From Mycobacteriales bacterium (GTDB taxonomy: Bacteria > Actinomycetota > Actinomycetes > Mycobacteriales > JBJMIH01), in contig JBJMIH010000031.1 of assembly GCA_045806985.1 (NCBI GenBank), forward strand, positions 10,038-74,037: 64,000 nucleotides of DNA, written 5' to 3'. Each line of letters starts with the position of its first letter. The stretch's first letter is position 1. The notes beneath the pieces were generated by a model. It saw nothing but the letters and a program-made list of their open reading frames with translations. It did not search any database and was not told the origin of the DNA. A program made the position numbers and the translations under genes. This document shows positions 1 through 61,514 of this stretch, piece after piece.

Positions 1-566
1 TACGCCTCATCCTCGCCGTCGGCGACCAGGTGCGCGACGCCGGAGCACCGGCTGTGCACCCGGCCGCCGCCCAGGCCCTCCATGTCGATCTGCTCGCCGG
101 TGACGCTGCGCACCACGTCCGGGCCGGTCACGAACATCCGGCCGCCGCCGGACATGATGACCAGGTCGGTGAGGGCGGGCCCGTACGCGGCGGCGCCGGC
201 CGCCGGCCCGAGCACCACCGACAGTTGCGGCACCTTGCCGGAGGCCCTCGTCATCGCGGCGAACATCCGCCCGACCGCGTCCATCGACTCGATGCCGTCG
301 GCGAGGGCCGCGCCGCCCGAGTGCCACATGCCGATGACCGGGCATCCCTCCCGGACGGCGGTCTCGATGGCGGCGACGATGGTCCGGCCGTCGGCCGCGC
401 CCAGCGCGCCGCCCATCCGGGTGGCGTCGGTGCAGTACCCGATCGCGGGCGCGCCGCCGACCCGGCCGCGGGCGGCCAGCGTGCCGCCGCCGTTCGGCCC
501 GAACGGTCGCATCGTGTCGCGGTCCATGAGCCTGCGGAGCCTGACCGCGGGGTCGCGTGGTTCCAT
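1..566 (-). CDS. Acyl-CoA carboxylase carboxyltransferase (beta) subunit, N-terminal ~188 codons; the 3' end runs off the window
   Basis: Missing from the ORF track because it is open at position 1. I hand-translated the minus strand codon by codon from the ATG at 566-564: [188 protein letters not shown]. The HSGGA, GPaaGaaaY, FVTGPdVV..VTGE and LGG pattern is typical of AccD/PccB-type carboxyltransferases. Confidence 0.85.
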   Translation of the reverse strand, partial: MEPRDPAVRLRRLMDRDTMRPFGPNGGGTLAARGRVGGAPAIGYCTDATRMGGALGAADGRTIVAAIETAVREGCPVIGMWHSGGAALADGIESMDAVGRMFAAMTRASGKVPQLSVVLGPAAGAAAYGPALTDLVIMSGGGRMFVTGPDVVRSVTGEQIDMEGLGGGRVHSRCSGVAHLVADGEDEA

Positions 567-687
567 TACGACCATTCTTCGGTGCCTTCCTTGGGTACCG
601 CCAAAGTGACGCTTGAGTAACTGGAATAGGGGTGGAACCGTGGGCTTAGGGGTAGGCCGTCGGGCGACCGGGAAATAGCGTTGAGGT
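567..687. promoter_or_regulatory. Divergent intergenic region between the carboxyltransferase gene and the small DUF5988-like ORF; candidate promoters/operator
   Basis: 121 bp with locally lower GC. It contains the direct repeat TAGGGGT(G/A)G at 627-635 and 647-655, spaced 20 bp apart. No promoter hexamers could be assigned confidently. Confidence 0.3.
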
Positions 688-900
688 ATGGACGAAAAGA
701 CGACGATAATTCTTTGTGGCGGCCCGGAGTGCCTGGACGAGTGCGAGCGGGTGCGCCATTGTTCCGAGCTTCCCGACAAGGTCGTCGTCGACCTCAACGG
801 CGGGCACGAGAGGTTCGAGCCCGCCGGTGAGTACCGCGACCTGGACGGGGAGAAGGCCGCCGTCTTCGAGTGGTGCTACCGCACCGCCGTCGCGGAGTGA
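688..900 (+). CDS. Small hypothetical protein (70 aa), resembles the actinobacterial DUF5988 family
   Basis: ATG preceded by GAGG. The composition is balanced, not the Arg/Pro/Gly-rich kind. The layout (IILCGGPECLD...VVVDLNGGHERFEP...VFEWCYRTAVAE) matches my recollection of DUF5988 proteins (..LEGGP..LP...K...GGYEHFE....W..RT.IAE). Family assignment is from memory, not from a search. Confidence 0.55.
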   Translation: MDEKTTIILCGGPECLDECERVRHCSELPDKVVVDLNGGHERFEPAGEYRDLDGEKAAVFEWCYRTAVAE

Positions 901-919: not shown

Positions 920-1510
920 CTAGTGCTTGCGGCACAGCGTGATCTCGTCCTCGACCGGGTAGGTCGGGTCGGTCTTGCTGATGACCCGCCACCGCCAGGT
1001 CCCGGACATGCCGGCGTACCGGCCGCTGGTGCCCCTGATCGCCATGCTCACCCAGTCCTGGGCGATGACCGAGGTGCGGTCCTGCGTCCCGGTGCCGACG
1101 AGCGTGCCGTCCGAAAAGTGCATCTGCTCGGCGATGTACTGCACGACGTGGCCGTCCGGCCGCGCGTAGAGCAGGTCCAGGTCGCCGGCGGCGGTCGCCA
1201 CGTGCTGGTTGCCCGTGAAGTCGTACAGCTCGTCGAGGTAGGCGGACATGTAGCCGGGGTTGACCGGGATGCCGGTCCCCACCGGTTGGTTGGTCATGAA
1301 CTTGACGGTGTGCTCCACCAGGTGCTTGCGCGCGCAGCCGGCCTTCGCCCTCGCCGCGTCGGCGGCGCTGGCGTGGTGCCCGCCGGTCGCCGCCGGCACG
1401 GCGAAGGCCGCGGTCGCGGCGGCCGCGACCGCGGCGGCCGCGACCGCGGCGGCCAGCACTGCCAGCCGCCGCGGTGAGTATCGCCGCCCGATCAGCTCGA
1501 ACGGTCGCAT
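920..1510 (-). CDS. Secreted small protein, paralog 1 of 3 (dirigent / allene-oxide-cyclase-barrel-like, function unknown)
   Basis: 196 aa. ATG at 1510 preceded by GAAAGGGGA. N-terminal twin-Arg/Ala-rich signal-like segment (IGRRYSPRRLAVLAAAVAAAAVAAAATAAFA/VPA). The mature part begins near a Cys (AGCARKH) and ends ITLCRKH, giving a conserved Cys pair. The GTSGRYAGMSGTWRWRV motif resembles the GGTG.y.Ga.G strand of dirigent/AOC-like beta-barrels. Confidence 0.8.
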   Translation of the reverse strand: MRPFELIGRRYSPRRLAVLAAAVAAAAVAAAATAAFAVPAATGGHHASAADAARAKAGCARKHLVEHTVKFMTNQPVGTGIPVNPGYMSAYLDELYDFTGNQHVATAAGDLDLLYARPDGHVVQYIAEQMHFSDGTLVGTGTQDRTSVIAQDWVSMAIRGTSGRYAGMSGTWRWRVISKTDPTYPVEDEITLCRKH

Positions 1511-1531
1511 CGTCTCGTCCCCTTTCGCTCG

Positions 1532-2095
1532 TCAGGAGTGGTGCCGGCACAGCGTGATGGTGTCCTCGATCGGATGGTTCGGCTGTGTCACCAGTACCCG
1601 CCACCGCCAGGTCCCGGACATGCCGGCGTACCGGCCGCCGGTGCCCTTGACCGGCATGCCCACCCACTTCTGGGCGAGCTCGTCGGCCTGGTCCTGGGCC
1701 CCCGTCCCGACGAACGTGCCGTCCGGGAACTGGACCTGCTCGGCCGCGTACTGCACGAGGTGGCCGTTGGACTTCCGGGAGATGATGTCGAGGCCGCCGG
1801 TGCCGGACGCGACGTGCTGGTCGGTGCCGAAGTTGTCCAGGTCGGTGAGGTAACCGGCCATCCAGCCGACCTTGTCCGGCGCCCCGGACGGCCCCACCGG
1901 CTCGTTGGGCAGGTACTTGAGGGTGTGCTCCGTCAGGTGCAGCCGCACGCACCCGGACGCCGGCTTGCTGGCGGCGGCGTGCGCGTGCCCGCCGGTCAGG
2001 GCCGGCGCCGCGACGGCGGCGGCCCCGGCGGCGAGCAGCGCGCCGGCCGGCAGCGCCAGCCGCCGCGGCGGAAGGTTCCTTCCGGGGATGCCCAT
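1532..2095 (-). CDS. Secreted small protein, paralog 2 of 3 (dirigent / AOC-barrel-like, function unknown)
   Basis: 187 aa. ATG at 2095 preceded by GAGGAAGGAG. Signal-like N-terminus (PPRRLALPAGALLAAGAAAVAAPALTGG). Cys near the mature N-terminus (SGCVRLH) and the C-terminal ITLCRHHS. GTGGRYAGMSGTWRWRV is identical in pattern to paralog 1. A conserved DNA tract (acccgccaccgccaggtcccggacatgccggcgtaccggccgc) is shared with paralog 1 at 983-1026 and 1588-1631. Confidence 0.8.
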   Translation of the reverse strand: MGIPGRNLPPRRLALPAGALLAAGAAAVAAPALTGGHAHAAASKPASGCVRLHLTEHTLKYLPNEPVGPSGAPDKVGWMAGYLTDLDNFGTDQHVASGTGGLDIISRKSNGHLVQYAAEQVQFPDGTFVGTGAQDQADELAQKWVGMPVKGTGGRYAGMSGTWRWRVLVTQPNHPIEDTITLCRHHS

Positions 2096-2108
2096 CTGGA
2101 CTCCTTCC

Positions 2109-2642
2109 TCAGTGGCAGAGGTTGATCTTCAGGGCGAACGTGTTCTCGGTGGGCACCTGCGACGGCCCGCTCAGCCGCTGGAACGCGACCGTGCCGACCG
2201 TGCCCTGGTACTTCCCGCCGGTGCCGACCGCCGGCAGCGTCACCCAGACGCCGGGCGTCTCGGCCTTGACGGCGTCGAAGAACGCGTCCTGCCGGACGGT
2301 GCCGCCGGGCAGCCGGTACTCGTACGAGGCGAGCGTGAGCACGGTGGGCTGCACGCTGCCGATCGTCGTGGAACCCACCGCGGTGCCGGACCTGCCGTCA
2401 CTGGAGGTGATCTTGTCGACGAACGCGATGCTGTCGCCCGGGGTCGGCGGGATCACCTTCCCCTGCACCGACATCTTCTGCACCTGCTCGCGGCCGGTGA
2501 ACGTGAGGCAGTTCGCCGCCGTCGTGTGTCCGGAGGCGGACGACCCCGGCGACACCACCGCGAGGCCGGCGGTCACGCCGCCGGCCACGACCGCGGAGGC
2601 GGCGAGCACCATCCACCGCTTCGAGAGTGACATGCGTGGCAT
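2109..2642 (-). CDS. Secreted small protein, paralog 3 of 3 (more divergent; dirigent / AOC-barrel-like, function unknown)
   Basis: 177 aa. RBS GGAAAGAGGA upstream of the start at 2642. Sec-type signal-like N-terminus (SKRWMVLAASAVVAGGVTAGLAVV). Cys pair (AANCLTF ... KINLCH). GTGGKYQGTVGTVAFQRL aligns with the G.G.Y.G..GT motif of paralogs 1 and 2. Confidence 0.75.
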   Translation of the reverse strand: MPRMSLSKRWMVLAASAVVAGGVTAGLAVVSPGSSASGHTTAANCLTFTGREQVQKMSVQGKVIPPTPGDSIAFVDKITSSDGRSGTAVGSTTIGSVQPTVLTLASYEYRLPGGTVRQDAFFDAVKAETPGVWVTLPAVGTGGKYQGTVGTVAFQRLSGPSQVPTENTFALKINLCH

Positions 2643-2705
2643 ACACGGTCCTCTTTCCTTGAGGCTGAACCAGCTTCAATGGTGAAGACCGCGGGTTAAG
2701 CCACG

Positions 2706-4262
2706 CTAATGCCGCCCTTGAGCCATCTCGGATTGGCGGCTCGGATCGGCCAGCTCCTTTTCCCGCTGGCTCGGCCCGCGCGGCACGAACAGCAGTGCGA
2801 GGACCATTCCGGCGACCGCGATGAGCCCGCAGGCGACCAGCATGACGTCCATTCCGTGAATGAACGCCGACCGCACCGAGTGCAGCAGCGCGGGCGAGTG
2901 CAGCTTGCGGGCGACGGCCGTGCCGCTGAGCACGGACCGGCGTGCCGCGTCGGCGGCGGGGGCGGGCAGGCCGGTCAGGTTCAGCCGACCCCGGTACCCG
3001 GAGTTGATCACCGAGCCGAGCAGCGCCACCCCGAACGTGCCGCCCACCGTCCGGATCGCGGTGATCAGCGCCGAGCCGACCCCGCTGCCCTCGGCGCTGA
3101 GGACCGCCAGCGCGGCGTTCATCGAGCCGGGCAGGGCCAGTCCGAGGCCCGCCCCGAGGAGCGCCACCCAGCCGGCGGTGAAGCCCTCGCCGCTGTGGAA
3201 GCCGGTCGTCGCGCCGGCGAACAGCCCGGCCGCCATCAGCGCGAATCCGGCCGCGATCGTCATCTTGGCGCCCACCCCGGCGGTGAGCCGGTCCGCGACC
3301 GCGCCACCGACCACCAGGCCGGCGATCATCGGCAGCAGCCGGATGCCGGCGCCCATCGCGTCGGTGCCGCGCACGCCCTGGAAGTACTGGGGCACCGCGA
3401 ACAGCAGCCCGAACATCGCGAACGACACCAGCGTCGCCAGCAGCGTCCCCCAGGAGAACGTGCGGGACCTGAACAGCCGCAGGTCGACCAGGGGCTGGCC
3501 GTCCGGCCGCCGGCCCAGCCGGCGCTCCCACTCCACGAACCCGGCCAGCACCACCGCGCCGAACAGCATCGGCAACACTGACCCCAGGTTGCTCCAGCCC
3601 TTCTGGCCAGCCTCGATCGCGCCGTACGTGAGCGCGGCCAGGGCGACGCTGGAGCCCAGGATGCCGGTCATGTCCAGGTCCGGCCGCCGCTCGCTGCGCG
3701 ACTCCGGCAGCAGTACCGCCACCGCCACCACCGCCAGCGCGGACACCGGCACGTTGATGAGGAACACCGAGCCCCACCAGTAGTGGGTGAGCAGCCAGCC
3801 GCCCAGCAGCGGGCCCAGCGGGTAGGCCACCACGGTCATGCCGACCAGCACGATCACCGCCCGGCCGCGCTCCTCCTCGCTGAACAGCACCGGCAGCACC
3901 GACAGCGACAGCGGCAGCACGAACGCCGCACCGAGCCCGAGCACCACCCTGGCGGCGATGAGCTGGCCCGGCGAGGTGGTGTACGCGCACCACAGCGACG
4001 AGGCCCCCAGCACCACCAGGGAGATCACCAGGAAGATCCGGCGGCCGTACCGGTCGCCGAGCAGGCCGCCCGGCAGCAGCATCGCGGCCATCGCGAGCGT
4101 GTAGGCGTCGACGATCCACTGGAGATCGGTGGTGGACGCGTGCAGGTCGGTGGACAGGGTCGGCAGGGCGAGGTTGAGCACGGTGGCGTCCAATCCCACC
4201 ACCAGCAGGGCGAGGGCGAGCGCGCCCACCGCCCACCACCGACGGTCACCTACCTTGGCCAT
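2706..4262 (-). CDS. MFS transporter, DHA2 (EmrB/QacA-like, 14-TMS type) drug:H+ antiporter; probable product exporter / self-resistance
   Basis: 518 aa. N-terminus WWAVGALALALLVVGLDATVLNLALPTLSTDLHASTTDLQWIVDAYTLAMAAMLLPGGLLGDRYGRR is the classic DHA2 signature. Hydrophobic segments run throughout. The start lies 24 nt after the PKS4 stop, with GAAGGG upstream. Confidence 0.9.
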   Translation of the reverse strand: MAKVGDRRWWAVGALALALLVVGLDATVLNLALPTLSTDLHASTTDLQWIVDAYTLAMAAMLLPGGLLGDRYGRRIFLVISLVVLGASSLWCAYTTSPGQLIAARVVLGLGAAFVLPLSLSVLPVLFSEEERGRAVIVLVGMTVVAYPLGPLLGGWLLTHYWWGSVFLINVPVSALAVVAVAVLLPESRSERRPDLDMTGILGSSVALAALTYGAIEAGQKGWSNLGSVLPMLFGAVVLAGFVEWERRLGRRPDGQPLVDLRLFRSRTFSWGTLLATLVSFAMFGLLFAVPQYFQGVRGTDAMGAGIRLLPMIAGLVVGGAVADRLTAGVGAKMTIAAGFALMAAGLFAGATTGFHSGEGFTAGWVALLGAGLGLALPGSMNAALAVLSAEGSGVGSALITAIRTVGGTFGVALLGSVINSGYRGRLNLTGLPAPAADAARRSVLSGTAVARKLHSPALLHSVRSAFIHGMDVMLVACGLIAVAGMVLALLFVPRGPSQREKELADPSRQSEMAQGRH

Positions 4263-4286
4263 GACATCCGCCCTTCTCGCGTCGGG

Positions 4287-8522
<4,236 letters not shown>

Positions 8523-8528
8523 GTGGCA

Positions 8529-34774
<26,246 letters not shown>

Positions 34775-34777
34775 TCG

Positions 34778-53732
<18,955 letters not shown>

Positions 53733-53743
<11 letters not shown>

Positions 53744-54818
53744 CGCTGAGCCCCTCCCGCACCCGGCCGCGCGCCTTCGCCAGCCACCAGGCCAGGTCGA
53801 GCACCGCCCGCCGCGGGCCGCGCACGCCCCGCATCCGCAGCACGGACTGGGCCGTGAACAGCTTCGACTCGGTCACGTGCCCAGGCGAGGCGTGCACGTC
53901 GTCGATCTCGGCGGTCCGCACGTTCGGCGCGTGCGCGGCGAGCCGGCGCGGGTCGGCCGGCGGGATGATCTCGTCCCGCCTGCTGGCCAGGTACGCCACC
54001 GGCACCGGCAGCGCGGCCAGCATGTCGTCGGTGAGCGCCCAGTCCGGCAGCAGGCCGGGCAGGCCCTCGGCCTTGCCGCCGGTGAGGTGCGCGAGCGTGT
54101 CGACGGTCACCTTCGGCAGCCGCTGCTGCCAGGCCGGGTCGGTGAAGAACGCGCTGACCGGCGCGCCGGCCGTCACCACCCCCCGGATGCGGCGGTCGGT
54201 GAGCGCGCAGCGCAGCGCCAGGTGCCCGCTGAAGCTGAGGGCGACCGCGTACGTCCGCGCCACGTCGGCCCGGTCGGCGACCGCGTCCAGCACCGCGGAC
54301 AGGTACCGCCAGCTGTCCGGGCCGTAGCTCGCCGGGTTCTCGCCGACGCCGGGCAGCTCGGCCACCACGCCGGCCATGCCGGTCCGGCCCAGGTCGGCCA
54401 GCAGCGGCGCCCACTGCTCCTTCACGCTGACGATGCCGCCGCAGACCAGCAGCAGCGGGCGGCGCTTCGATCCGGACAGGCCGGACGCCCAGCAGCGCAC
54501 GTCGCCGGCGTCCACCCGCTCGATGCCGCGCCGGCCCCGCCGCCAGGTGTCGAACGCGGCGACGCAGGCGTCCTGCGCCCGCTGCCGGGCCGGGCCGTCC
54601 ACGTACGGGAAGCGCGCCATCGCGTACCGCCGGCTGCCGCCCAGCGGGTCGCCGGCCGCCACCCGCCGGTCACCGGCCGCCGTCCACTGCACCACCCAGG
54701 AGGTCGGGCTGTCCTCGGCGTCATCGGTGATCCGGTCCAGCACCTCCCGGTGGTCCCTGATGTCCTGGGCGCGGGCGTGCACGGTCGCGAACCGCTTCAG
54801 CTCCTCGACGTCGTTCAT
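53733..54818 (-). CDS. Alpha/beta-fold hydrolase of the tetronate cassette (AbyA5/ChlD4/Agg5/QmnD4-position; candidate acetate-eliminating, exocyclic-methylene-forming enzyme)
   Basis: 361 aa. FrsA-like alpha/beta hydrolase look. The candidate nucleophile elbow is AVALSFSGH, a variant of GxSxGG. It sits immediately after the E2-like gene (ATGA overlap at 54815-54818), and its stop overlaps the PKS1 start by 11 nt. The functional call rests on gene context and family analogy. Confidence 0.75.
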
Positions 54819-55579
54819 GCCGGCTCTCCCTTGAAGTTCTCCAGCGCCTCCTTGATCTCGCCCAGCACGTCGGCGGCTTCCGCGCCGTCGATCACCCGGT
54901 GGTCGAAGGCCAGGCTGAGCCGCATCGCCGGTACCACGACCACCTCGCCGCGCCGCGCGACCGGACGGTCGGCGACCTGGCCCATGCCGAGCGTGATCGT
55001 GGTGCCGCCGACCGAGTGGAAGGCGTCGACCGGCCGGTGCCCCAGCGAGCTGACCGCGAACGTGCCGACCAGCTCGGGCCGGCGGCGCAGCGAGCGCATC
55101 CCGGCGCGGTACAGCAGCCGGCCCAGCGGCACGGGCAGCTTCTGCAGCATCCGGGGGCCGGCGAACTCCGGCATGTTGGCGGCGTCGCCGTCGCGGTAGT
55201 GGTCCACCTGGGCCTGGATGTCGGCCAGGCCGGCACTGTCCAGGTCCGGCAGGACGGCGGTGAGCACCACCCGGTGGCCGTTGACGGTCTTGTCCAGCGC
55301 GAGCTTGCCGCTGGCCGTCCCGTACCTGGCCACCCGCGGCCGGGACCAGCCGGTGATGGCCCCGTTCGCCTCCGGGTGCCCGACCAGCACGCGGGCGGCC
55401 GCGTACAGCACGTAGCTGACCGTCGAGTACCGCTCGCCGCGGGCGCGGGCCTCCTCCCGGTGCGCGGTCACCGCGCTCATGTCCACCTCGGTGTCCAGGA
55501 AGACCGGCGCGAACTCACGGGCCTGGCCGAGGAACTGGTAGGTGTGCCGCCGCTCCCTGGGCAGCTGGTTGATGGTCAT
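54815..55579 (-). CDS. 2-oxoacid dehydrogenase E2-type acyltransferase, catalytic domain only (AbyA4/ChlD3/Agg4/QmnD3-position)
   Basis: 254 aa. The C-terminal segment LSLAFDHRVIDGAEAADVLGEIKEALE contains the DHRxxDG catalytic motif of E2 acyltransferases. No lipoyl or E3-binding domain is present. ATGA overlap with the ACP stop at 55576-55579. Confidence 0.85.
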   Translation of the reverse strand: MTINQLPRERRHTYQFLGQAREFAPVFLDTEVDMSAVTAHREEARARGERYSTVSYVLYAAARVLVGHPEANGAITGWSRPRVARYGTASGKLALDKTVNGHRVVLTAVLPDLDSAGLADIQAQVDHYRDGDAANMPEFAGPRMLQKLPVPLGRLLYRAGMRSLRRRPELVGTFAVSSLGHRPVDAFHSVGGTTITLGMGQVADRPVARRGEVVVVPAMRLSLAFDHRVIDGAEAADVLGEIKEALENFKGEPA

Positions 55580-55803
55580 GTCCCCACCGCCACTGTGTAG
55601 ATCTGTTCGAGGCTCCTGGCATGCAGCAGGTCGGGCAGCGACAGCTGCCGCCCGGTGTCCCGCTCGAGGAGGGTGAGCAGCCAGAGCAGGTGCATCGAGT
55701 CCCAGCCGGGCAGCTCGTCCAGGTCGCGGCCGGCGTCGGCGTCGGATACCTCGATGCCGAGCTCGTCGCGCACCACGGTCAGCAGGTCGTCCATGCTGTT
55801 CAC
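55576..55803 (-). CDS. Discrete acyl carrier protein (glyceryl-ACP carrier; AbyA3/ChlD2-position)
   Basis: Only the last ~75 codons of track ORF 55576..57321 make sense: (VNS)MDDLLTVVRDELGIEVSDADAGRDLDELPGWDSMHLLWLLTLLERDTGRQLSLPDLLHARSLEQIYTVAVGT. The phosphopantetheine Ser sits in GWDSMH (codon 55696-55698). The start is either the GTG at 55803 (GTGA overlap with the FkbH-like stop) or the ATG at 55794. Confidence 0.8.
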   Translation of the reverse strand: MNSMDDLLTVVRDELGIEVSDADAGRDLDELPGWDSMHLLWLLTLLERDTGRQLSLPDLLHARSLEQIYTVAVGT

Positions 55804-57677
55804 GTCGGTTCCCGTTCGAGTTCGTCGGTGAGGCGCACGCAGTCCGGCGGCGCCACGATGTCGGTCAGGTCGTGGCGGAACAGCGCGGTGCCGCCGTCGT
55901 CGCCGACCTTGGTGAAGCCGTGCCGCGGGTAGAACTCGCGCATCGCGCGGTTCTTCGCGGTCGGCCGGTACGCCCCGTACACCGCCGCCGCGCCGGCGTC
56001 CCGCGCGTGCCGCAGCAGCGCCGCCAGGCAGGCCCGCTCGATGCCCCGGACGAACACCCGGCAGCTGAGCAGGAAGTTCTCCACGGTCATGCCGTCGCCG
56101 CCGCGCCGGGCGAAGATCGCGCCAACCATCCCGTTGTCGCCGAACCGGTCGCTGGCCCGGATCGTCAGCACCAGCGCGTCCGGGTCGTCCAGCAGGGCGC
56201 TGACGTCGGCGGGGGACAGCCGGCGGGTGGTCAGGTTGAACTGGTTGGTCCGTAGCGTGAGCTGGGACAGCCGGGGCACGTCCGGCTCGCCGGCCCTGGC
56301 CAGCCGGACCCGGATGTCCAGCTCGCGGCGGTACTCGTCGAGGGACTCGAAGTGCTGGAGGAAGTCGGTGCGGTCCAGCTCCTCGCGGTAGCGGGCGACC
56401 CTGGCGCGGTCCTCCTCGGTCAACTCCCGGGTGTCGAACCAGCCGTCGGCCAGCAGCCGGTCCACGTGCAGCGCCGGCTCGCCGTCGACCTCCACCACGG
56501 CCACGTCCGGCAGCTCGCGGCGGACCAGCCCGCGCTCGGCGGGGCTGTCGTCCACGAACACGACGCTGTCGGCGCCCAGGTTGAGGGCGGCGACCAGCTC
56601 GGCGAGGCTCTCGTGCTTCGGCCCCCAGCCGGCGGCGACCCGCACGAAATCCTCCTCGCGCAGCGTCATCTCCGGGTGCTCGCGCAGCGCCTGGCGCACC
56701 GGCTCGGGGTCGTTCTTGCTGACCGCCGCCAGCAACACCCCCTGCGCGCCGAGCTGCCTGGCGACCCGCTGGAAGGCGCGGAACGCCTCGCCGCGGTCGC
56801 CGCCGGCCACCTCCAGGCCCTCCACCCCGTCGTCGCCGAGCGTGCCGCCCCACACCGTCTCGTCCAGGTCGAGGGCCAGGCACTTGCGGGTACGGCCGGT
56901 GAGGTGGCGGGCCAGGTGGCCGACCTCGCGGGCGTAGCGGGCCAGCAGCTCCAGGGACAGGTGGCAGCCGGCGTAGGTGTCCAGCCGCGGCTCCACGGCC
57001 GGCACGCCACCCTCGGCCAGCAGCGGGTCCAGATCCACCACGACGGTCGCGGGGTGGTCTTCCGGCAGCCGCAGCAGGCGCGCGTTCGCCTCCCGCCAGG
57101 CGGCGCCGAGCGCGGCCCGGGACCGGTGGTCGACCAGCTGCCCGGTGACCGCGCGGGGGAGCGGCAGGGTGTTCAGCACCAGCGTGCCGGCGCCCGTGCC
57201 CTCGTACCGGCCGGCCAGCCGCTCCACCAGCTCGACCTTCGCGGCCAGCACCCGCCCGGCGTCCGCCGGCCGCCACGGCAGCGGCAGCTCGTCGGTCACC
57301 ATCCGGGGGTCCAGCACGCACAGCACCAGGTCGCAGTCGCCGGCGTAGACCAGGCTGTCCGGATCGGACAGTTCGCGGGCGTAGCCGCCGTACTCGCCCA
57401 CCTCGGCGCGCAGCAGCAGCCCGTGCCGGGCCAGCTCGGCGGCGAGCGGCGGCAGCAGGCCGGCGAGCGTGCCGTGGCCGGTGAGCGCGACCCGCACGGC
57501 GGGCACGTCCGGGTGCCGGCCGGCCACCTCGTCCGGGTCCAGCCGGGCGAGCAGCCGCCCGGCCTGGGCCAGCCCGTCGCCGTCCAGGTCCGCGAGCAGC
57601 TGCCTGACCCGCGGGTACCCGGCCGCCAACCGGCCGGTGCGGTACAGGTCGAGGAGCTCGGCGAGCGGCGTCGACAT
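55800..57677 (-). CDS. FkbH-like glyceryl-S-ACP synthase (HAD phosphatase + acyltransferase; AbyA2/ChlD1-position)
   Basis: 625 aa from the ATG at 57677 (MSTPLAELLDLYRTGRL...). The HAD motif is LALDLDETVWGG (DxDxT). VFVDDSPAE and FLLSCRVFVRGIE (Cys motif) are typical of FkbH-like domains. The ATG overlaps the FabH-like stop. The longer track ORF (to 58076) overlaps the FabH-like gene and is Arg/Gly-rich. Confidence 0.9.
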   Translation of the reverse strand: MSTPLAELLDLYRTGRLAAGYPRVRQLLADLDGDGLAQAGRLLARLDPDEVAGRHPDVPAVRVALTGHGTLAGLLPPLAAELARHGLLLRAEVGEYGGYARELSDPDSLVYAGDCDLVLCVLDPRMVTDELPLPWRPADAGRVLAAKVELVERLAGRYEGTGAGTLVLNTLPLPRAVTGQLVDHRSRAALGAAWREANARLLRLPEDHPATVVVDLDPLLAEGGVPAVEPRLDTYAGCHLSLELLARYAREVGHLARHLTGRTRKCLALDLDETVWGGTLGDDGVEGLEVAGGDRGEAFRAFQRVARQLGAQGVLLAAVSKNDPEPVRQALREHPEMTLREEDFVRVAAGWGPKHESLAELVAALNLGADSVVFVDDSPAERGLVRRELPDVAVVEVDGEPALHVDRLLADGWFDTRELTEEDRARVARYREELDRTDFLQHFESLDEYRRELDIRVRLARAGEPDVPRLSQLTLRTNQFNLTTRRLSPADVSALLDDPDALVLTIRASDRFGDNGMVGAIFARRGGDGMTVENFLLSCRVFVRGIERACLAALLRHARDAGAAAVYGAYRPTAKNRAMREFYPRHGFTKVGDDGGTALFRHDLTDIVAPPDCVRLTDELEREPT

Positions 57678-58771
57678 CAGGCCCCCGCCACCTTCTCCAG
57701 CTTCTCCAGGGCGAAGCCGGCCTCGATCCACTTGCTGGACTCGATCGCGACGCCGGCGGCCCTGTCGCCGGCGGCCATCCGCGGCAGCAGCTGCTCCAGC
57801 TGGAAGAAGGGCAGCGCGTTGCCGTTGTTTCCGGTGCGGGCCACGCAGCTCACCTCGGCCGCGTCCCGCACCGCCAACCGCTCCACGATCCGGCCGGTCA
57901 TCGCGCCGGACAGCTGCGGCGGCAGCAGGTGGTCCAGGTCGTCCGGCTTCCAGTCCAGCCGGTCCAGCAGCTCGGTGAGGGTGTCGGCGGCCAGCTCGGG
58001 CACGGATTCCTCGATGGCCTTGTAGTCCTCGCCGCCGGCCGGCCGGTCCGCGTCGCGGTCGGCCAGCCCGAACCACTCCACGGTCTGGCCCGGCGGCCGT
58101 CCCCTGCCGACCAGGCGCACGAACGCGTCCCGCAGCACCACGTCACCGGCGCCGGCGGCCCCGGTGGCGGCGGCGGTGGCGGTGGTGGCGGCGGTGGGCT
58201 CGGTGGTCAGCACCGCCGCGCCGGCGCCGTCGCCGAAGAGCACCACGTTGACCAGCTGCTCCGGCGCCAGCGTGTGCAGGTCGAGGGTCAGGTCCAGGTG
58301 CTTGGCGCACACGTCGCCGCCGAGCACCAGCGCGGTACGGCACCGGCCCGCGCGCAGCATCGTCGCGGCCACGTCCAGCGCCTGGACGGCGCCCGAACAC
58401 CCCGACTGGAGCTGGTAGCTGGGTATCCCGTCGATCCCGATCCGGTCGGCGACCACGTTCACGGTGGCCGGCATGAGCGCGTCCGGCGTCGCGGTCCCCA
58501 TCACGATCAGCCCGACCTCCGCGGGCTCGACCTCCGCCTGCTCCAGCGCGGCCCGCCCCGCGGCGGTCGCCAGGTCCGCCAGCCCGCACCGCACCTCGCC
58601 CGACTCCAGGTCGACGGCGAGGTGCCGGCTCGCGGTCCCGACGAACGAGTCGATCCACTGCTCCCAGACCGAGTTCATCCCGAACCGCCTGGCCAGCATC
58701 GCGTTGCTGACCGGAGGACCCGGCAACTCCGTACCGACCCCGACCACTCGCACTTCCGGAACGCTCATCAC
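57677..58771 (-). CDS. FabH-like ketoacyl-ACP synthase III homologue (tetronate ring-forming; AbyA1/ChlM/Tmn15/RkD-position)
   Basis: 364 aa. The GTG at 58771 is followed immediately by an ATG at 58768, with GGTGGGGA upstream. Motifs seen: VRVVGVGTELPG, active-site Cys in QLQSGCSGAVQAL, VLFGDGAGAAVL, and GNNGNA at the FabH Asn position. The FabH HQAN position reads PPQLS by hand alignment. Confidence 0.9.
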   Translation of the reverse strand: MMSVPEVRVVGVGTELPGPPVSNAMLARRFGMNSVWEQWIDSFVGTASRHLAVDLESGEVRCGLADLATAAGRAALEQAEVEPAEVGLIVMGTATPDALMPATVNVVADRIGIDGIPSYQLQSGCSGAVQALDVAATMLRAGRCRTALVLGGDVCAKHLDLTLDLHTLAPEQLVNVVLFGDGAGAAVLTTEPTAATTATAAATGAAGAGDVVLRDAFVRLVGRGRPPGQTVEWFGLADRDADRPAGGEDYKAIEESVPELAADTLTELLDRLDWKPDDLDHLLPPQLSGAMTGRIVERLAVRDAAEVSCVARTGNNGNALPFFQLEQLLPRMAAGDRAAGVAIESSKWIEAGFALEKLEKVAGA

Positions 58772-58839: not shown

Positions 58840-59484
58840 CTACCGGGGATCGGTGGTGAGGTAGGCGACGACCATGTCGCCGACCATGCGGCGTTGCTTT
58901 CGGCGGTATCCGGGGTCGGTCAGGTCACGGCCGAACAGGGCGCCGAAGGTGTGCTGGTTGGCGACGCGGAAGAAGCAGAACGCGCTGATCATCAGGTGCA
59001 GGTCGAGCGCGTCGGCCGGGGCGACGAAGTCGCCGCTGGCGCGGCCGGCCGCGAGGATCCTGGAGATCAGGTCGAGCACGGGCGCGCCCAGGTTGACCAG
59101 CAGGTCGGACTTGCGCAGGTGCTCGGCGCGGTGGATGTTCTCGATGCTGACCAGCCGGATGAAGTCGGGATGCGCGTCATGGTGGTCGAAGGTCAGCTCG
59201 GCCAGCGTGCGGATCGCCTCGACCGGGGCCAGGTGGGCCACGTCGATGCTGGCCTCGGCGGCGCGGATCTCGCTGTACGCCCGCTCCAGCACGGCGATGT
59301 AGAGCTGCTCCTTGCCGCCGAAGTAGTAGTAGATCATCCGCTTGGTGGTGCGGGTCAGCGCCGCGATCTCGTCCACCCGCGCGCCGTCGTACCCCTGCCG
59401 AGAGAACTCGCGCATGGCGACGTTCAGGATCTCTGCCCGGGTGCGTTCCGCGTCGCGCTGGCGCATCGCCGCCAGTCTAGACAC
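58840..59484 (-). CDS. TetR-family transcriptional regulator
   Basis: 214 aa. The N-terminal HTH region ERTRAEILNVAMREFSRQGYDGARVDEIAALTRTTKRMIYYYFGGKEQLY is the TetR signature. GTG start at 59484; an alternative ATG lies at 59466. It sits 68 bp upstream of the FabH-like gene and 1 nt downstream of the preceding stop. Confidence 0.9.
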   Translation of the reverse strand: MSRLAAMRQRDAERTRAEILNVAMREFSRQGYDGARVDEIAALTRTTKRMIYYYFGGKEQLYIAVLERAYSEIRAAEASIDVAHLAPVEAIRTLAELTFDHHDAHPDFIRLVSIENIHRAEHLRKSDLLVNLGAPVLDLISRILAAGRASGDFVAPADALDLHLMISAFCFFRVANQHTFGALFGRDLTDPGYRRKQRRMVGDMVVAYLTTDPR

Positions 59485-59485
59485 G

Positions 59486-60286
59486 TCAGCCGAGGTAGGC
59501 GGGCAGTACCGAGGGCGGTACGGGTCCCTTGTTCCGCCGGCCCTGGCCCGCCTCCTCCCACGCGTGCGCGAGGATGCCGACGCTCCTGCTCAGCACGAAA
59601 AGGCCGCGGGCCAGCGGCGCCGGGAAGCCCAGCTCGGCGAAGATGATCGCGGTGGCGCCGTCGATGTTCATCGGCACCGGCCGGCGCCGGACCGTGGTGA
59701 GGCGCGCCTCCAGCGCCAGGCCGGCGCGCAGGTGGTCCCCGGCGACCAGCCCGTCCCGCACGGCGCCGTCCACCAGCGACAGCAGCGGGTCGCGGCGCGG
59801 GTCGACGGGATGGAACCGGTGCCCGAACCCGGGCAGGTAGCGCGGCCCCTCGGCGATCACCCGGTCCGCGGCCGCGGCCAGGTCGAGGCCGGTCGCGGCC
59901 AGCTCCCGTACCCGGTCCAGCAGCTCGACGCACTGCTCGCCGGCCCCGCCGTGCACGTCGCCGAGCACGTTGACGCCGCTGGCCACCGCGTTGTTGAGGC
60001 CGACACCGCAGGTGACCGCCATCCGGGCGATCGCCACCGACGGCGCCTGCGGGCCGTGGTCGACGGCGGCGACCAGCGCCGCCTCCAGCAGCCGGGCCCG
60101 GCCGGGGTCGGGCAGCTCGCCGCGCAGCATCAGCCAGATGACGCCGGCCAGGCCGGTCCGGCCGATGAGGTCCTGCACCGGCCGCCCGCGCAGCTCCAGC
60201 ACGCCGGGTTCCATCCGGGACACCGCCGTACCCCACCAGCCGGCCACCTGGCCGGTCGGGTCGACGTCGTTGACCGGGCCGGTCAT
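59486..60286 (-). CDS. Short citrate-synthase-family protein (citryl-CoA lyase-like)
   Basis: 266 aa from the ATG at 60286 (MTGPVNDVDPTGQVAGWWGT...). GDVHGGAGE and PGFGHRFH resemble citrate synthase catalytic His motifs. It is far shorter than a full citrate synthase. ATGA overlap with the CoA-transferase stop. The upstream part of the track ORF (to 60889) is Arg/Pro-rich and was rejected. Confidence 0.75.
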   Translation of the reverse strand: MTGPVNDVDPTGQVAGWWGTAVSRMEPGVLELRGRPVQDLIGRTGLAGVIWLMLRGELPDPGRARLLEAALVAAVDHGPQAPSVAIARMAVTCGVGLNNAVASGVNVLGDVHGGAGEQCVELLDRVRELAATGLDLAAAADRVIAEGPRYLPGFGHRFHPVDPRRDPLLSLVDGAVRDGLVAGDHLRAGLALEARLTTVRRRPVPMNIDGATAIIFAELGFPAPLARGLFVLSRSVGILAHAWEEAGQGRRNKGPVPPSVLPAYLG

Positions 60287-61479: not shown

Positions 61480-61514
61480 CCGGCTGCTCCTCGGTCGGCT
61501 CGGGTCAGGGTCGC

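What the first reader, a model, noticed from the sequence alone, without database searches (positions are those of the whole stretch)
920..58771. One co-directional, translationally coupled tetronate + modular PKS gene string (~58 kb, 13 genes)
From the FabH-like start (58771/58768) to the stop of the last secreted paralog (920), every gene is on the minus strand. Junctions read directly from the sequence:
- ATG/TGA overlap at 57677-57679.
- GTGA overlap at 55800-55803.
- ATGA overlaps at 55576-55579 and 54815-54818.
- An 11-nt overlap of the hydrolase stop with the PKS1 start (53733-53743).
- A 3-nt gap between PKS1 and PKS2.
- ATGA overlap between PKS2 and PKS3 (19664-19667).
- A 6-nt gap between PKS3 and PKS4.
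- 24 nt to the MFS gene, then gaps of 63, 13 and 21 nt.

The string holds the full tetronate toolkit, a KSQ loader, 9 extension modules, an exporter and 3 secreted paralogs. For a tetronate cluster it is unusually compact and free of tailoring genes. I cannot tell from sequence alone whether it matches a described cluster.
Basis: partly seen in the sequence, partly recalled or inferred. Interest (0 to 1): 0.8.

Follow-up and report, generated by a model that had tools for sequence, protein, structure and literature searches.

The report
Orphan spirotetronate-type polyketide gene cluster
This is a real, intact gene cluster from an uncultured actinomycete. It should build a new abyssomicin-like tetronate antibiotic, and its three "secreted paralogs" are ring-forming Diels-Alder-type cyclases that appear to be exported from the cell.

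Summary
All 13 minus-strand genes and every junction between 920 and 58771 are as described. The only correction is that the FabH/FkbH overlap is 1 nt (TGATG).

The string encodes:
- the five-gene glycerate/tetronate cassette;
- a KSQ loader plus nine cis-AT extension modules, with no thioesterase;
- a DHA2-family MFS exporter;
- three PF18678 beta-barrels.

The barrels are AbyU/Cyc15-family [4+2] cyclases, not anonymous secreted proteins. This rests on PDB sequence hits down to E = 8e-28 and on AlphaFold models with TM 0.83-0.90 to Cyc15b and AbyU. So the cluster is not free of post-PKS enzymes.

Module 4 is KS-AT-DH-ACP with no KR. This mirrors the keto-retaining module of the neoabyssomicin PKS. 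Module 9 carries a dead KR. The predicted product is a C29H40O5 3-acyl-5-methylene tetronate that cyclises to an abyssomicin-like (class I) spirotetronate.

The source is an NCBI MAG labelled Mycobacteriales bacterium. The closest FkbH relative in 185,579 species genomes is 67% identical, and no matching described cluster was found.

Two caveats apply:
- The co-directional run continues upstream through a TetR gene.
- A stable stem-loop (2636-2704) sits between the exporter and the first cyclase, so a single transcript is unproven.

Verdict: a new member of a known kind, of moderate interest.

Novelty: no close relative was found, but antiSMASH/MIBiG could not be run.

The parts
57677..58771 (-). 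FabH-like ketosynthase III (RkD/AbyA1-type). Inferred role: joins glyceryl-ACP to the beta-ketoacyl chain and releases it as a tetronate. ATG 58768 is the likelier start.
   Evidence: PF08545 and PF08541 hits. It scores below every housekeeping FabH cut-off in NCBIfam (132.9 bits against 249). Orthologues 57-62% identical sit next to FkbH genes in more than 25 other loci.
55800..57677 (-). FkbH-like glyceryl-S-ACP synthase
   Evidence: TIGR01686 FkbH domain scores 300.9 bits against a cut-off of 146.65. The DLDETVWGG and SCRV motifs are read directly from the sequence.
55576..55803 (-). Discrete acyl carrier protein for the glyceryl unit
   Evidence: PF00550 scores 25.9 bits against a cut-off of 20.8. 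The WDSM serine motif is visible in the sequence.
54815..55579 (-). 2-oxoacid-dehydrogenase-type acyltransferase (Agg4/AbmA4-like). Inferred role: acetylates the 5-hydroxymethyl group.
   Evidence: PF00198, E = 9e-23. The DHRVIDG motif is present. The role is taken from PMC5819245.
53733..54818 (-). Alpha/beta hydrolase (Agg5/AbmA5-like). Inferred role: elimination that yields the exocyclic methylene.
   Evidence: PF06500 and PF00561 hits. The role is taken from PMC5819245. The identical protein is found in three other assemblies.
34778..53743 (-). PKS1 (6321 aa). Loader KSQ-AT(malonyl)-ACP. M1 and M2: KS-AT(methylmalonyl)-DH-KR-ACP. M3: KS-AT(methylmalonyl)-DH-ER-KR-ACP.
19664..34774 (-). PKS2 (5036 aa). 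M4: KS-AT(methylmalonyl)-DH-ACP with no KR. M5: KS-AT(methylmalonyl)-DH-KR-ACP. M6: KS-AT(malonyl)-DH-ER-KR-ACP.
   Evidence: The M4 DH keeps the HxxxGxxxxP, YGP, LPFxW and DxxxQ motifs.
8529..19667 (-). PKS3 (3712 aa). M7: KS-AT(methylmalonyl)-DH-ER-KR-ACP. M8: KS-AT(malonyl)-DH-KR-ACP.
4287..8522 (-). PKS4 (1411 aa). M9: docking domain-KS-AT(malonyl)-dimerisation element-degenerate KR-ACP. There is no thioesterase.
   Evidence: The KR remnant lacks the GxGxxG motif and the Lys-Ser-Tyr-Asn catalytic residues.
2706..4262 (-). DHA2-family (EmrB/QacA-type) MFS efflux pump
   Evidence: PF07690, E = 1e-53. TIGR00711 scores 239.5 bits against a cut-off of 230.2. It is 56% identical to an MFS gene that also precedes an AOC-like gene in L043.
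2636..2704 (-). Stem-loop in the MFS-aoc1 gap. It pairs the aoc1 Shine-Dalgarno sequence and AUG. It is a candidate attenuator, terminator or RNA-processing site.
   Evidence: Minimum free energy -35.7 kcal/mol, z = -4.36, 0 of 200 shuffles fold as well. A perfect 20-bp hairpin sits at the same place in L043.
2109..2642 (-). aoc1: an AbyU-family beta-barrel cyclase of a separate lineage, with a signal-like N-terminus
   Evidence: PF18678 scores 45.3 bits against 25.9. The AF2 model has pLDDT 94.6 and TM 0.83 to AbyU. Its best relatives are only 33-36% identical.
1532..2095 (-). aoc2: a Cyc15-like AbyU-family cyclase with an RR-containing signal-like N-terminus
   Evidence: PF18678 hit. PDB 8of7 hit at E = 2e-20. 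It is 52-56% identical to aoc3.
920..1510 (-). aoc3: a Cyc15-like AbyU-family cyclase with an RR-containing signal-like N-terminus
   Evidence: PF18678 scores 68.2 bits. PDB 8of7 hit at E = 8e-28. The AF2 model has pLDDT 96.9 and TM 0.90 to Cyc15b.
58840..59484 (-). TetR-family regulator, 68 nt upstream of fabH on the same strand. Its membership of the cluster is uncertain.
   Evidence: PF00440 and PF17938 hits. It is not orthologous to the TetR genes of L041 or L043.
688..900 (+). DUF5988 small protein, convergent with aoc3. It recurs in tetronate clusters.
   Evidence: PF19450, E = 8e-21. Homologues are present in L001, L011 and L043.
1..641 (-). Acyl-CoA carboxyltransferase (beta subunit), running off the left end of the window. 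Likely role: supply of malonyl- or methylmalonyl-CoA.
   Evidence: PF01039, E = 1e-40. The same gene order is seen in L001.

Best explanation
The string is a biosynthetic gene cluster for an abyssomicin-like (class I) spirotetronate polyketide from an uncultured actinomycete.

Shown by domain analysis:
- A KSQ loader makes an acetate starter.
- Nine cis-AT modules add methylmalonyl x5, malonyl, methylmalonyl, malonyl, malonyl.
- The reduction pattern along the chain is ene, ene, saturated, keto, ene, saturated, saturated, ene, keto.
- No thioesterase is present.

Inferred from characterised homologues:
- FkbH and the discrete ACP make glyceryl-ACP.
- The FabH-like enzyme condenses glyceryl-ACP with the ACP-bound beta-ketoacyl chain and releases a 3-acyl-5-hydroxymethyl tetronate.
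- The E2-type acyltransferase and the alpha/beta hydrolase acetylate the hydroxymethyl group and then eliminate it, giving a 5-methylene dienophile.
- The linear product would be C29H40O5 (468.29 Da). It carries a terminal dimethyl-diene (C16-C19), a C13 ketone, a C10=C11 alkene and a C4=C5 enone.
- At least one of the three AbyU-family barrels catalyses the intramolecular [4+2] cycloaddition of the terminal diene onto the exomethylene, forming the spirotetronate.
- aoc2 and aoc3 are recent duplicates. aoc1 is a separate lineage and probably has a different job.
- The cyclases carry Sec/Tat-like signals and follow the exporter gene, so cyclisation may occur after export.
For: Tetronate cassette: with roles taken from PMC5819245.

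Module map and specificities:
-.
- YASH/GHSQG marks methylmalonyl and HAFH/GHS[IV]G marks malonyl, the same codes used for the abm cluster.
- All seven active KRs carry the LDD motif.

Keto-retaining modules:
- M9 has a degenerate KR.
- M4 is KS-AT(methylmalonyl)-DH-ACP. It parallels abm module 5, which is KS-ATp-DH-inactive KR-ACP.

Cyclases:
- PF18678 scores above the gathering cut-off for all three.
- PDB sequence hits to Cyc15, Cyc15b, AbyU, AbmU, PloI4 and PyrI4.
- Cyc15 converts an AbyU substrate analogue into a spirotetronate in vitro (PMC10946715).
- AF2 models have pLDDT 96.9 and 94.6. The top roughly 40 PDB fold matches are all tetronate or tetramate pericyclases.

Class I reading: no FAD-dependent (PyrE3/ChlE3-type) cyclase gene lies in the window.

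Signal peptides:
- RR or KR n-region, a hydrophobic run of about 20 aa, and small-residue (AxA/SxS-type) stretches after it in all three.
- Two conserved Cys.
- GC3 of 0.91-0.96 across the N-terminal codons, so they are translated.

The cluster is real: identical or near-identical DNA occurs in four other assemblies.
Against: - No product, transcript or enzyme assay exists.
- Three cyclases are more than a single spirocyclisation needs, and the roles of the extra ones are unexplained.
- The M4 DH keeps all its catalytic motifs although it has no KR partner. A trans or neighbouring KR could therefore reduce C13, which would give a diene and a decalin-type (class II) product instead.
- Only 920 bases lie beyond the left end of the string and about 5 kb beyond the right end. 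Tailoring genes could lie outside the window, since the contig is 190 kb.
- Signal peptides were judged with my own heuristics, not with SignalP or TatP.
- The biochemically characterised family members looked at here (AbyU, Cyc15) are short forms of the kind that lack such signals.
Confidence: 0.7

Rival explanations
1. Class II-type product. C13 is reduced by a KR acting from another module or in trans and is dehydrated by the intact M4 DH. This gives a C10-C13 diene that reacts with the C4=C5 enone to form a decalin. The three barrels share decalin formation and spirocyclisation, replacing the usual FAD-dependent decalin cyclase.
For: - The M4 DH has all its catalytic motifs.
- The spacing of the C4=C5 enone, the four-carbon tether and C10-C13 matches the decalin logic of chlorothricin- and kijanimicin-type aglycones (my own knowledge).
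- There are three cyclases from two lineages.
- No FAD_binding_3 cyclase gene is in the window.
Against: - M4 has no KR at all.
- The homologous abm module retains the ketone with a dead KR and a DH of unclear activity.
- With a decalin, the spiro-macrocycle would shrink to about 9 atoms by my count, which is very strained.
- Related class II-like loci (L041, L043) do carry a FAD_binding_3 gene.
Confidence: 0.12
2. The three barrels are not the pathway's catalysts. They are exported binding or immunity proteins, or they act on other substrates. The product is then an uncyclised 5-methylene tetronate, or one that cyclises spontaneously.
For: - They belong to a signal-bearing, two-cysteine clade (71 of 85 long homologues). 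None of the characterised enzymes looked at here shows these features.
- The fold also includes the non-cyclase PodA and plant dirigent and AOC proteins.
- dN/dS between aoc3 and its 90%-identical orthologue is fairly relaxed, at about 0.5.
Against: - They are co-operonic with the PKS.
- Signal-bearing homologues sit directly beside tetronate cassettes elsewhere (L037, L043).
- The closest solved relative, Cyc15, is catalytically active.
- The cluster makes both a diene and a dienophile.
Confidence: 0.1
3. The string is not one transcript. It has at least two units, fabH-MFS and aoc1-aoc3, or it is read through from the upstream TetR operon.
For: - The stem-loop at 2636-2704 begins 2 nt after the MFS stop codon (dG -35.7 kcal/mol, z = -4.36).
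- L043 has a perfect 20-bp hairpin at the same junction.
- The TetR gene is co-directional, 68 nt upstream, and abuts the gene before it.
Against: - Eleven of the twelve junctions are 24 nt or less, or overlap.
- No sigma-70-like promoter or T-tailed terminator lies on the minus strand.
- The hairpin has no U-tract and overlaps the aoc1 ribosome-binding site, which fits translational control as well as termination.
Confidence: 0.4
4. The cluster, or its module order, is already described. Alternatively, the module order is an artefact of MAG assembly.
For: - MIBiG and antiSMASH could not be run.
- A 4.5-kb block is duplicated at 83% identity, and exact repeats reach 203 bp.
- There seem to be only three NCBI protein accessions for the four PKS ORFs.
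Against: - The best FkbH relative among 185,579 species genomes is 67% identical.
- aoc3 has a single relative above 50% identity among 1.84 billion representative proteins.
- No paper in the searched library (7.70 million PubMed Central papers and 0.34 million bioRxiv preprints) pairs a tetronate with C29H40O5.
- All four PKS ORFs are intact, with matching docking and linker logic.
- The cassette-PKS1 junction is reproduced in independent assemblies.
Confidence: 0.06

Closest known systems
Abyssomicin and neoabyssomicin clusters (aby in Micromonospora/Verrucosispora maris; abm in Streptomyces koyangensis)
   Same: - Five-gene tetronate cassette, including the Agg4/Agg5-type pair that forms the exomethylene.
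- KSQ loader.
- Leading DH-KR modules that build a terminal diene.
- A mid-chain methylmalonyl module that retains the ketone but still carries a DH.
- A final module that leaves a beta-keto group, with no thioesterase.
- An AbyU/AbmU-type barrel cyclase and a LuxR-type regulator nearby.
   Different: - Ten modules rather than seven.
- Six propionate units rather than two.
- The KR of the keto module is deleted rather than inactivated.
- Three cyclases rather than one, all with signal-like N-termini.
- No P450, luciferase-like monooxygenase, type II thioesterase, SARP regulator or ABC transporter in the window.
- FkbH identity to any genome-derived relative is 67% or less.
Cyc15 / Cyc15b of Streptomyces sp. 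NL15-2K (PDB 8OF7, 9QP8)
   Same: These are the closest solved relatives of aoc3 and aoc2 (E = 8e-28 and 1e-24; TM 0.87 and 0.90). Cyc15 makes a spirotetronate from an abyssomicin-type substrate analogue in vitro. The strain carries Diels-Alderase paralogues.
   Different: Foldseek identity is only 33-39%. Cyc15 is 153 aa, with its barrel starting near residue 9, so it has no signal peptide. The natural product of its cluster is unknown.
Class II spirotetronate clusters (chlorothricin, kijanimicin, tetrocarcin, pyrroindomycin type)
   Same: Tetronate cassette, a modular PKS and a beta-barrel spiro-cyclase. The enone, tether and alkene spacing resembles the decalin precursor.
   Different: Those clusters use a FAD-dependent decalin cyclase (PyrE3/ChlE3 type), have 12 or more modules, and carry glycosylation or other tailoring genes. 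None of these is in the window.
Agglomerin / RK-682 / tetronomycin-type non-spiro tetronates
   Same: Formation of glyceryl-ACP by an FkbH-like enzyme, and tetronate formation by a FabH-like enzyme. Agglomerin and tetronomycin also have the exomethylene.
   Different: They have no diene partner or no AbyU-type spirocyclase function. The chain origin also differs (fatty-acyl or polyether).

Membership tests
Glycerate-derived tetronate cassette (RkD/FkbH/ACP/Agg4/Agg5 type) | FkbH-domain glyceryl-ACP synthase | tested here: met
   TIGR01686 scores 300.9 bits against a cut-off of 146.65.
Glycerate-derived tetronate cassette (RkD/FkbH/ACP/Agg4/Agg5 type) | A discrete ACP and a FabH-like KS III that is not a housekeeping FabH, adjacent to FkbH | tested here: met
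   PF00550 and PF08545 hits. The KS III falls below all FabH equivalog cut-offs. The gene order is conserved in many loci.
Glycerate-derived tetronate cassette (RkD/FkbH/ACP/Agg4/Agg5 type) | An E2-type acyltransferase and an alpha/beta hydrolase pair for acetylation and elimination | tested here: met
   PF00198 at E = 9e-23 with the DHRxxDG motif. PF06500 and PF00561 hits.
Glycerate-derived tetronate cassette (RkD/FkbH/ACP/Agg4/Agg5 type) | The last PKS module leaves a beta-keto thioester and has no thioesterase | tested here: met
   M9 is KS-AT-DE-degenerate KR-ACP.
Glycerate-derived tetronate cassette (RkD/FkbH/ACP/Agg4/Agg5 type) | A tetronate product is actually made | not testable with these tools
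   This needs expression and LC-MS/NMR.
AbyU/PyrI4-family [4+2] cyclases (PF18678) | A Pfam AOC_like domain above the gathering score | tested here: met
   Scores are 45.3, 48.6 and 68.2 bits against 25.9 for aoc1, aoc2 and aoc3.
AbyU/PyrI4-family [4+2] cyclases (PF18678) | [quoted passage not shown] | tested here: met
   The aoc3 and aoc1 models have pLDDT 96.9 and 94.6, eight strands each, and TM 0.83-0.90 to Cyc15b and AbyU. aoc2 was not modelled, but it is 52-56% identical to aoc3.
AbyU/PyrI4-family [4+2] cyclases (PF18678) | Genomic association with a pathway that makes both a diene and an exomethylene dienophile | tested here: met
   M1 and M2 are DH-KR modules, and the Agg4/Agg5-like pair lies in the same string.
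AbyU/PyrI4-family [4+2] cyclases (PF18678) | The Glu-Arg salt bridge that seals the barrel (Glu17/Arg122 in Cyc15) | tested here: inconclusive
   The Glu aligns (LVEH / LTEH / GREQ). The Arg122 column is Trp in aoc3, with Arg one position later (alignment). No coordinates were available to check.
AbyU/PyrI4-family [4+2] cyclases (PF18678) | Catalysis of the cycloaddition | not testable with these tools
   This needs an enzyme assay with the linear tetronate.
Abyssomicin-type (class I) spirotetronate cluster | The same module number and order as aby/abm (loader plus six modules) | tested here: not met
   The window has a loader plus nine modules, against seven modules in total in abm. It works like these clusters but is not an abyssomicin cluster.
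Abyssomicin-type (class I) spirotetronate cluster | No FAD-dependent decalin cyclase | tested here: met
   None was found among the ORFs of the 64-kb window. The rest of the 190-kb contig was not seen.
Sec/Tat-exported proteins | A tripartite signal: a basic n-region, a hydrophobic h-region and an AxA-type c-region | tested here: inconclusive
   All three features are seen by eye and by Kyte-Doolittle heuristics. aoc2 and aoc3 carry an RR. SignalP and TatP were not available.
Single polycistronic operon | Co-directional genes with short or overlapping junctions and no internal terminator | tested here: inconclusive
   The junctions meet the criterion and the consensus scans are negative. However, there is a stable stem-loop at 2636-2704.

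The most novel reading that the evidence does not exclude
The final ring-forming chemistry happens outside the cytoplasm. The MFS pump exports the reactive linear 5-methylene tetronate. Three Sec/Tat-exported, disulfide-clamped AbyU-family barrels from two lineages then fold it into a new polycyclic C29 scaffold, perhaps by more than one pericyclic step. This would explain why no cytoplasmic tailoring genes follow.

It would also assign a function to a whole uncharacterised signal-bearing clade of 'Diels-Alderases': 71 of the 85 long homologues found.
Probability: 0.3. Interest if true: 0.7.

Novelty: new member of a known kind. Interest (0 to 1): 0.42.

Why it matters
Spirotetronates such as abyssomicin C and tetrocarcin are valued antibiotic and antitumour leads. 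Their beta-barrel Diels-Alderases are sought-after biocatalysts.

This cluster offers three things:
- a ten-module, propionate-rich assembly line from an uncultured actinomycete whose product (predicted C29H40O5) matches nothing I could find;
- three new cyclases from two lineages;
- a clear example of the signal-peptide-bearing, two-cysteine clade of this enzyme family, whose members sit beside exporter genes.

If these enzymes really act after export, cyclisation would become an extracellular, possibly self-protective, last step. That idea is directly testable.

If not, this is simply one more orphan tetronate cluster.

Tried and rejected
1. Pattern scans with the aoc2/aoc3 alignment returned no confirmed relative, either in genome contigs or in metagenome contigs. 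The motifs VQY[IA]AEQ and Y[AN]GMSGTW are too specific, and the JGI samples that hold relatives are apparently not in that collection.

2. Word-indexed protein searches with aoc3, full length and mature, found only the protein itself and one JGI relative. The exhaustive HMMER search was needed.

3. The third word-indexed search, with PKS4, was swamped by generic multi-module PKSs at 44-63% identity. It gave no useful neighbour.

4. The exact look-up of aoc3 in the contig index failed, so the rest of the 190-kb MAG contig could not be read.

5. Consensus promoter and terminator scans found nothing on the minus strand. I treat this as weak evidence only, because the consensus is E. coli-like.

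6. Inverted-repeat searches in the TetR-fabH gap found no operator-like palindrome. That gap also folds no better than shuffled sequence.

7. Literature searches for PDB 9QP8, Cyc15b, 'signal peptide' with Diels-Alderase and tetronate, and C29H40O5 with tetronate returned nothing relevant.

8. I considered whether the M4 DH-only module marks a non-canonical function such as an isomerase or pyran synthase. I set this aside once the abm module 5 precedent (DH plus a dead KR, ketone retained) was found.

9. I considered MAG mis-assembly. The longest exact repeat is 203 bp, and interleaved repeats could at most swap homologous KS-AT segments.

Full report
OBSERVATION

The window has about 75% G+C. 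From 58771 down to 920, thirteen intact ORFs lie on the minus strand, with GC3 of 0.92-0.98 and no internal stops.

- GTGA at 55800-55803
- ATGA at 55576-55579, 54815-54818 and 19664-19667
- an 11-nt overlap at 53733-53743
- gaps of 3, 6, 24, 63, 13 and 21 nt

The one correction is that the FabH stop and the FkbH start share a single base (TGATG, 57679-57675). Each start codon is preceded by a purine-rich Shine-Dalgarno-like stretch.

The sequence is not an assembly artefact:
- The hydrolase region occurs at 100% identity in two independent Logan assemblies (SRR17459183, SRR17459185).
- It occurs at 98.4% identity in JGI metagenome 3300078555.
- The left end of the window occurs at 90% identity in JGI metagenome 3300061856.

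The source record is an NCBI MAG labelled 'Mycobacteriales bacterium', contig 190,486 bp. The protein accessions run from MFL6072389 (aoc3) to MFL6072399 (FkbH).

WHAT THE GENES ARE

The first five genes form the tetronate cassette:
- a FabH-like KS III. It has PF08545 and PF08541 hits but scores far below every housekeeping FabH cut-off.
- an FkbH-domain protein. TIGR01686 scores 300.9 bits against a cut-off of 146.65.
- a discrete ACP.
- a 2-oxoacid-dehydrogenase-type acyltransferase with the DHRVIDG motif.
- an alpha/beta hydrolase.

The order FabH-FkbH-ACP-acyltransferase-hydrolase followed by a KSQ-loader PKS recurs in Streptomyces, Umezawaea, Actinocrispum and Micromonospora genomes. The roles of these five proteins are taken from the neoabyssomicin study (PMC5819245). 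They are glyceryl-ACP formation, condensation and release as a hydroxymethyl tetronate, then acetylation and elimination to an exomethylene.

THE PKS

BLAST with the PKS4 domains and Pfam scans of the loader and each AT-to-ACP stretch give the following map:

| Module | Extender | Domains |
|---|---|---|
| Loader | malonyl | KSQ (DAAQSSS)-AT-ACP |
| M1 | methylmalonyl | KS-AT-DH-KR-ACP |
| M2 | methylmalonyl | KS-AT-DH-KR-ACP |
| M3 | methylmalonyl | KS-AT-DH-ER-KR-ACP |
| M4 | methylmalonyl | KS-AT-DH-ACP |
| M5 | methylmalonyl | KS-AT-DH-KR-ACP |
| M6 | malonyl | KS-AT-DH-ER-KR-ACP |
| M7 | methylmalonyl | KS-AT-DH-ER-KR-ACP |
| M8 | malonyl | KS-AT-DH-KR-ACP |
| M9 | malonyl | KS-AT-dimerisation element-degenerate KR-ACP |

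- There is no thioesterase.
- AT calls rest on the YASH/GHSQG and HAFH/GHS[IV]G codes, the same codes used for the abm cluster.
- All seven active KRs carry the LDD motif (B type), which predicts E double bonds. That rule comes from established KR typing, not from a test here.
- The M9 KR remnant lacks the GxGxxG motif and the Lys-Ser-Tyr-Asn residues. The beta-keto group needed for tetronate formation is therefore kept.
- M4 has a DH with every catalytic motif but no KR. The neoabyssomicin PKS has the same logic: its keto-retaining methylmalonyl module is KS-AT-DH-KR(inactive)-ACP, and the activity of its DH is unclear.
- I therefore read M4 as a keto-retaining module whose KR has been deleted.

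PREDICTED PRODUCT (INFERENCE)

The chain would be:

CH3-CH=C(Me)-CH=C(Me)-CH2-CH(Me)-C(=O)-CH(Me)-CH=C(Me)-(CH2)3-CH(Me)-CH=CH-C(=O)-[4-hydroxy-5-methylene-tetronate]

Its formula is C29H40O5, 468.29 Da. It carries a terminal diene and an exomethylene dienophile, as the AbyU and AbmU substrates do.

THE 'SECRETED PARALOGS'

All three are PF18678 (AOC_like) proteins.

Sequence evidence:
- aoc3 and aoc2 hit the solved Diels-Alderases Cyc15 (8OF7; E = 8e-28 and 2e-20) and Cyc15b (9QP8). Weaker hits follow to AbyU, AbmU, AbnU, PloI4 and PyrI4.
- aoc1 hits PloI4 and AbyU weakly.

Structural evidence:
- The AlphaFold models of aoc3 and aoc1 are confident (pLDDT 96.9 and 94.6) and form eight-stranded barrels.
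- Their top roughly 40 PDB fold matches are all tetronate or tetramate pericyclases, with TM 0.90 to Cyc15b and 0.83-0.85 to AbyU.
- Cyc15 converts an abyssomicin-type substrate analogue into a spirotetronate in vitro (PMC10946715).

Relationships:
- aoc2 and aoc3 are each other's closest relatives (52-56% identity).
- aoc1 is a separate lineage, at most 36% identical to anything found.

So the cluster is not free of post-PKS enzymes. It carries three candidates for the key cyclisation step.

SECRETION

Within the window:
- Each paralog starts with basic residues (RR in aoc2 and aoc3, KR in aoc1). A hydrophobic run of about 20 residues follows, then a stretch of small residues.
- Each has two conserved cysteines. 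One lies just before strand 1 and one in the last strand.
- The N-terminal codons have coding-like GC3 of 0.91-0.96.
- The JGI orthologue differs from aoc3 there only by substitutions and in-frame indels.

Across the family:
- An exhaustive HMMER search of 1.84 billion representative proteins found only 107 relatives.
- Of the 85 relatives of at least 160 aa, 71 have such signal-like N-termini and 74 have at least two Cys.
- None of the 23 shorter, AbyU-like relatives has a signal-like N-terminus.
- Signal-bearing members sit next to tetronate cassettes elsewhere (L037).
- In a Streptomyces genome contig (L043), an MFS gene 56% identical to this one is again followed by a signal-bearing AOC-like gene. 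A LAL regulator and a DUF5988 gene are nearby.

The papers I could read on AbyU, AbmU and Cyc15 do not mention signal peptides. This is heuristic evidence, because SignalP and TatP were not available.

BOUNDARIES AND TRANSCRIPTION

Upstream, still on the minus strand:
- a TetR gene (58840-59484), 68 nt from fabH
- a citrate-synthase-like gene, whose stop is 1 nt before the TetR start
- a family III CoA-transferase gene
- an IclR gene

An aldehyde dehydrogenase gene lies on the plus strand.

Downstream:
- a convergent DUF5988 gene (688-900)
- a carboxyltransferase gene that runs off the window
- in the JGI relative, a LuxR/TPR regulator after that

Consensus scans find no sigma-70-like promoter or T-tailed terminator on the minus strand inside the string. 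That scan is weak for actinomycetes.

The one notable feature is the 63-nt MFS-aoc1 gap:
- It folds into a stem-loop at 2636-2704 (dG -35.7 kcal/mol, z = -4.36, 0 of 200 shuffles as stable).
- The stem-loop begins 2 nt after the MFS stop codon and pairs the aoc1 Shine-Dalgarno sequence and AUG.
- In L043, the same junction carries a perfect 20-bp hairpin.

A single 58-kb transcript is therefore plausible but unproven. The cyclase genes may be separately controlled.

COMPARISON WITH KNOWN CLUSTERS

The cluster works like the abyssomicin and neoabyssomicin clusters. It shares the cassette, the KSQ loader, the diene-building modules, the keto module with an orphan DH, the beta-keto end and the barrel cyclase.

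It is not an abyssomicin cluster:
- It has ten modules rather than seven and six propionate units rather than two.
- It has three cyclases rather than one.
- It has no P450, monooxygenase or ABC transporter genes in the window.
- No PyrE3/ChlE3-type FAD cyclase is in the window, unlike the class II-like loci L041 and L043.

Distance from sequenced relatives:
- The best FkbH relative among 185,579 species genomes is 67% identical (Actinomadura sp. DC4).
- aoc3 has one relative above 50% identity in the representative library.

I found no described cluster or compound that matches, but MIBiG and antiSMASH were not available.

CAVEATS

- The modules share a 4.5-kb block at 83% identity and exact repeats of up to 203 bp. 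At worst, short-read assembly could have swapped homologous segments.
- Only three NCBI accession numbers separate the MFS and hydrolase proteins, although there are four PKS ORFs.

VERDICT

This is a genuine, intact orphan spirotetronate-type cluster from an uncultured actinomycete, and a new member of a known kind. Its most interesting aspect is the exporter followed by three signal-bearing cyclases. That arrangement makes extracellular cyclisation a testable hypothesis.

Noticed in passing
window 920-2642; homologues P0002-P0108: The AbyU/PF18678 family splits in two. Of the 85 homologues of at least 160 aa, 71 carry a signal-peptide-like N-terminus and 74 have at least two Cys (one before strand 1, one in the last strand). 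None of the 23 short AbyU-like homologues has a signal. The papers read here do not discuss this.
   Followed up: partly
window 2636-2704 (minus strand): A stable stem-loop (-35.7 kcal/mol, z = -4.36) lies immediately after the MFS stop codon and sequesters the aoc1 ribosome-binding site and AUG. L043:7376-7419 has a perfect 20-bp hairpin at the equivalent MFS-AOC junction.
   Followed up: partly
window 688-900 (+ strand); L001 780-989; L011 about 3798-3980; L043 11595-11813: A 70-aa cysteine-rich DUF5988 protein recurs beside tetronate or spirotetronate clusters, here convergent with aoc3. Its function is unknown.
   Followed up: partly
window 1-641 (minus strand): An acyl-CoA carboxyltransferase beta subunit runs off the left end of the window. 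It probably supplies precursors for the six methylmalonyl units. In the relative contig L001, a LuxR/TPR (LAL-like) regulator follows it.
   Followed up: partly
window 59486-62354 (minus strand) and 62470-63951 (+ strand): A short citrate-synthase-like (citryl-CoA-lyase-like) gene, a family III CoA-transferase gene and an IclR regulator gene lie upstream on the same strand as the cluster. They abut the TetR gene. An aldehyde dehydrogenase gene is divergent. This looks like an acyl-CoA catabolic operon, and its relation to the cluster is unknown.
   Followed up: no
window 10290-14698 and 22438-26898: A 4.5-kb block (end of KR-ACP of M7 or M5, plus KS-AT of M8 or M6) is duplicated at 83% identity, with exact repeats of up to 203 bp. 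This indicates module duplication or gene conversion. It also gives a small risk of segment swaps in a short-read MAG assembly.
   Followed up: partly
L034 7160-8324 (Streptomyces sp. NRRL S-31); L041 531-3329: Other loci carry two AOC-like genes. In L034 they are in tandem upstream of fabH. In L041 they flank a FAD_binding_3 (PyrE3-like) gene. Multiple barrel cyclases in one cluster are therefore not unique to this window, although three in a row was not seen elsewhere.
   Followed up: partly
NCBI accessions MFL6072392-MFL6072396: Only three accession numbers lie between the MFS and hydrolase proteins, although the window has four intact PKS ORFs. My translations of FabH, aoc1 and PKS4 are not found by exact look-up. 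The deposited annotation probably uses different starts or lacks one PKS protein.
   Followed up: no
window about 58160-58230 (FabH-like residues about 180-205): The FabH-like protein carries a low-complexity Thr/Ala-rich insertion (TTEPTAATTATAAATGAAGAG) between its N- and C-terminal thiolase-fold halves.
   Followed up: no
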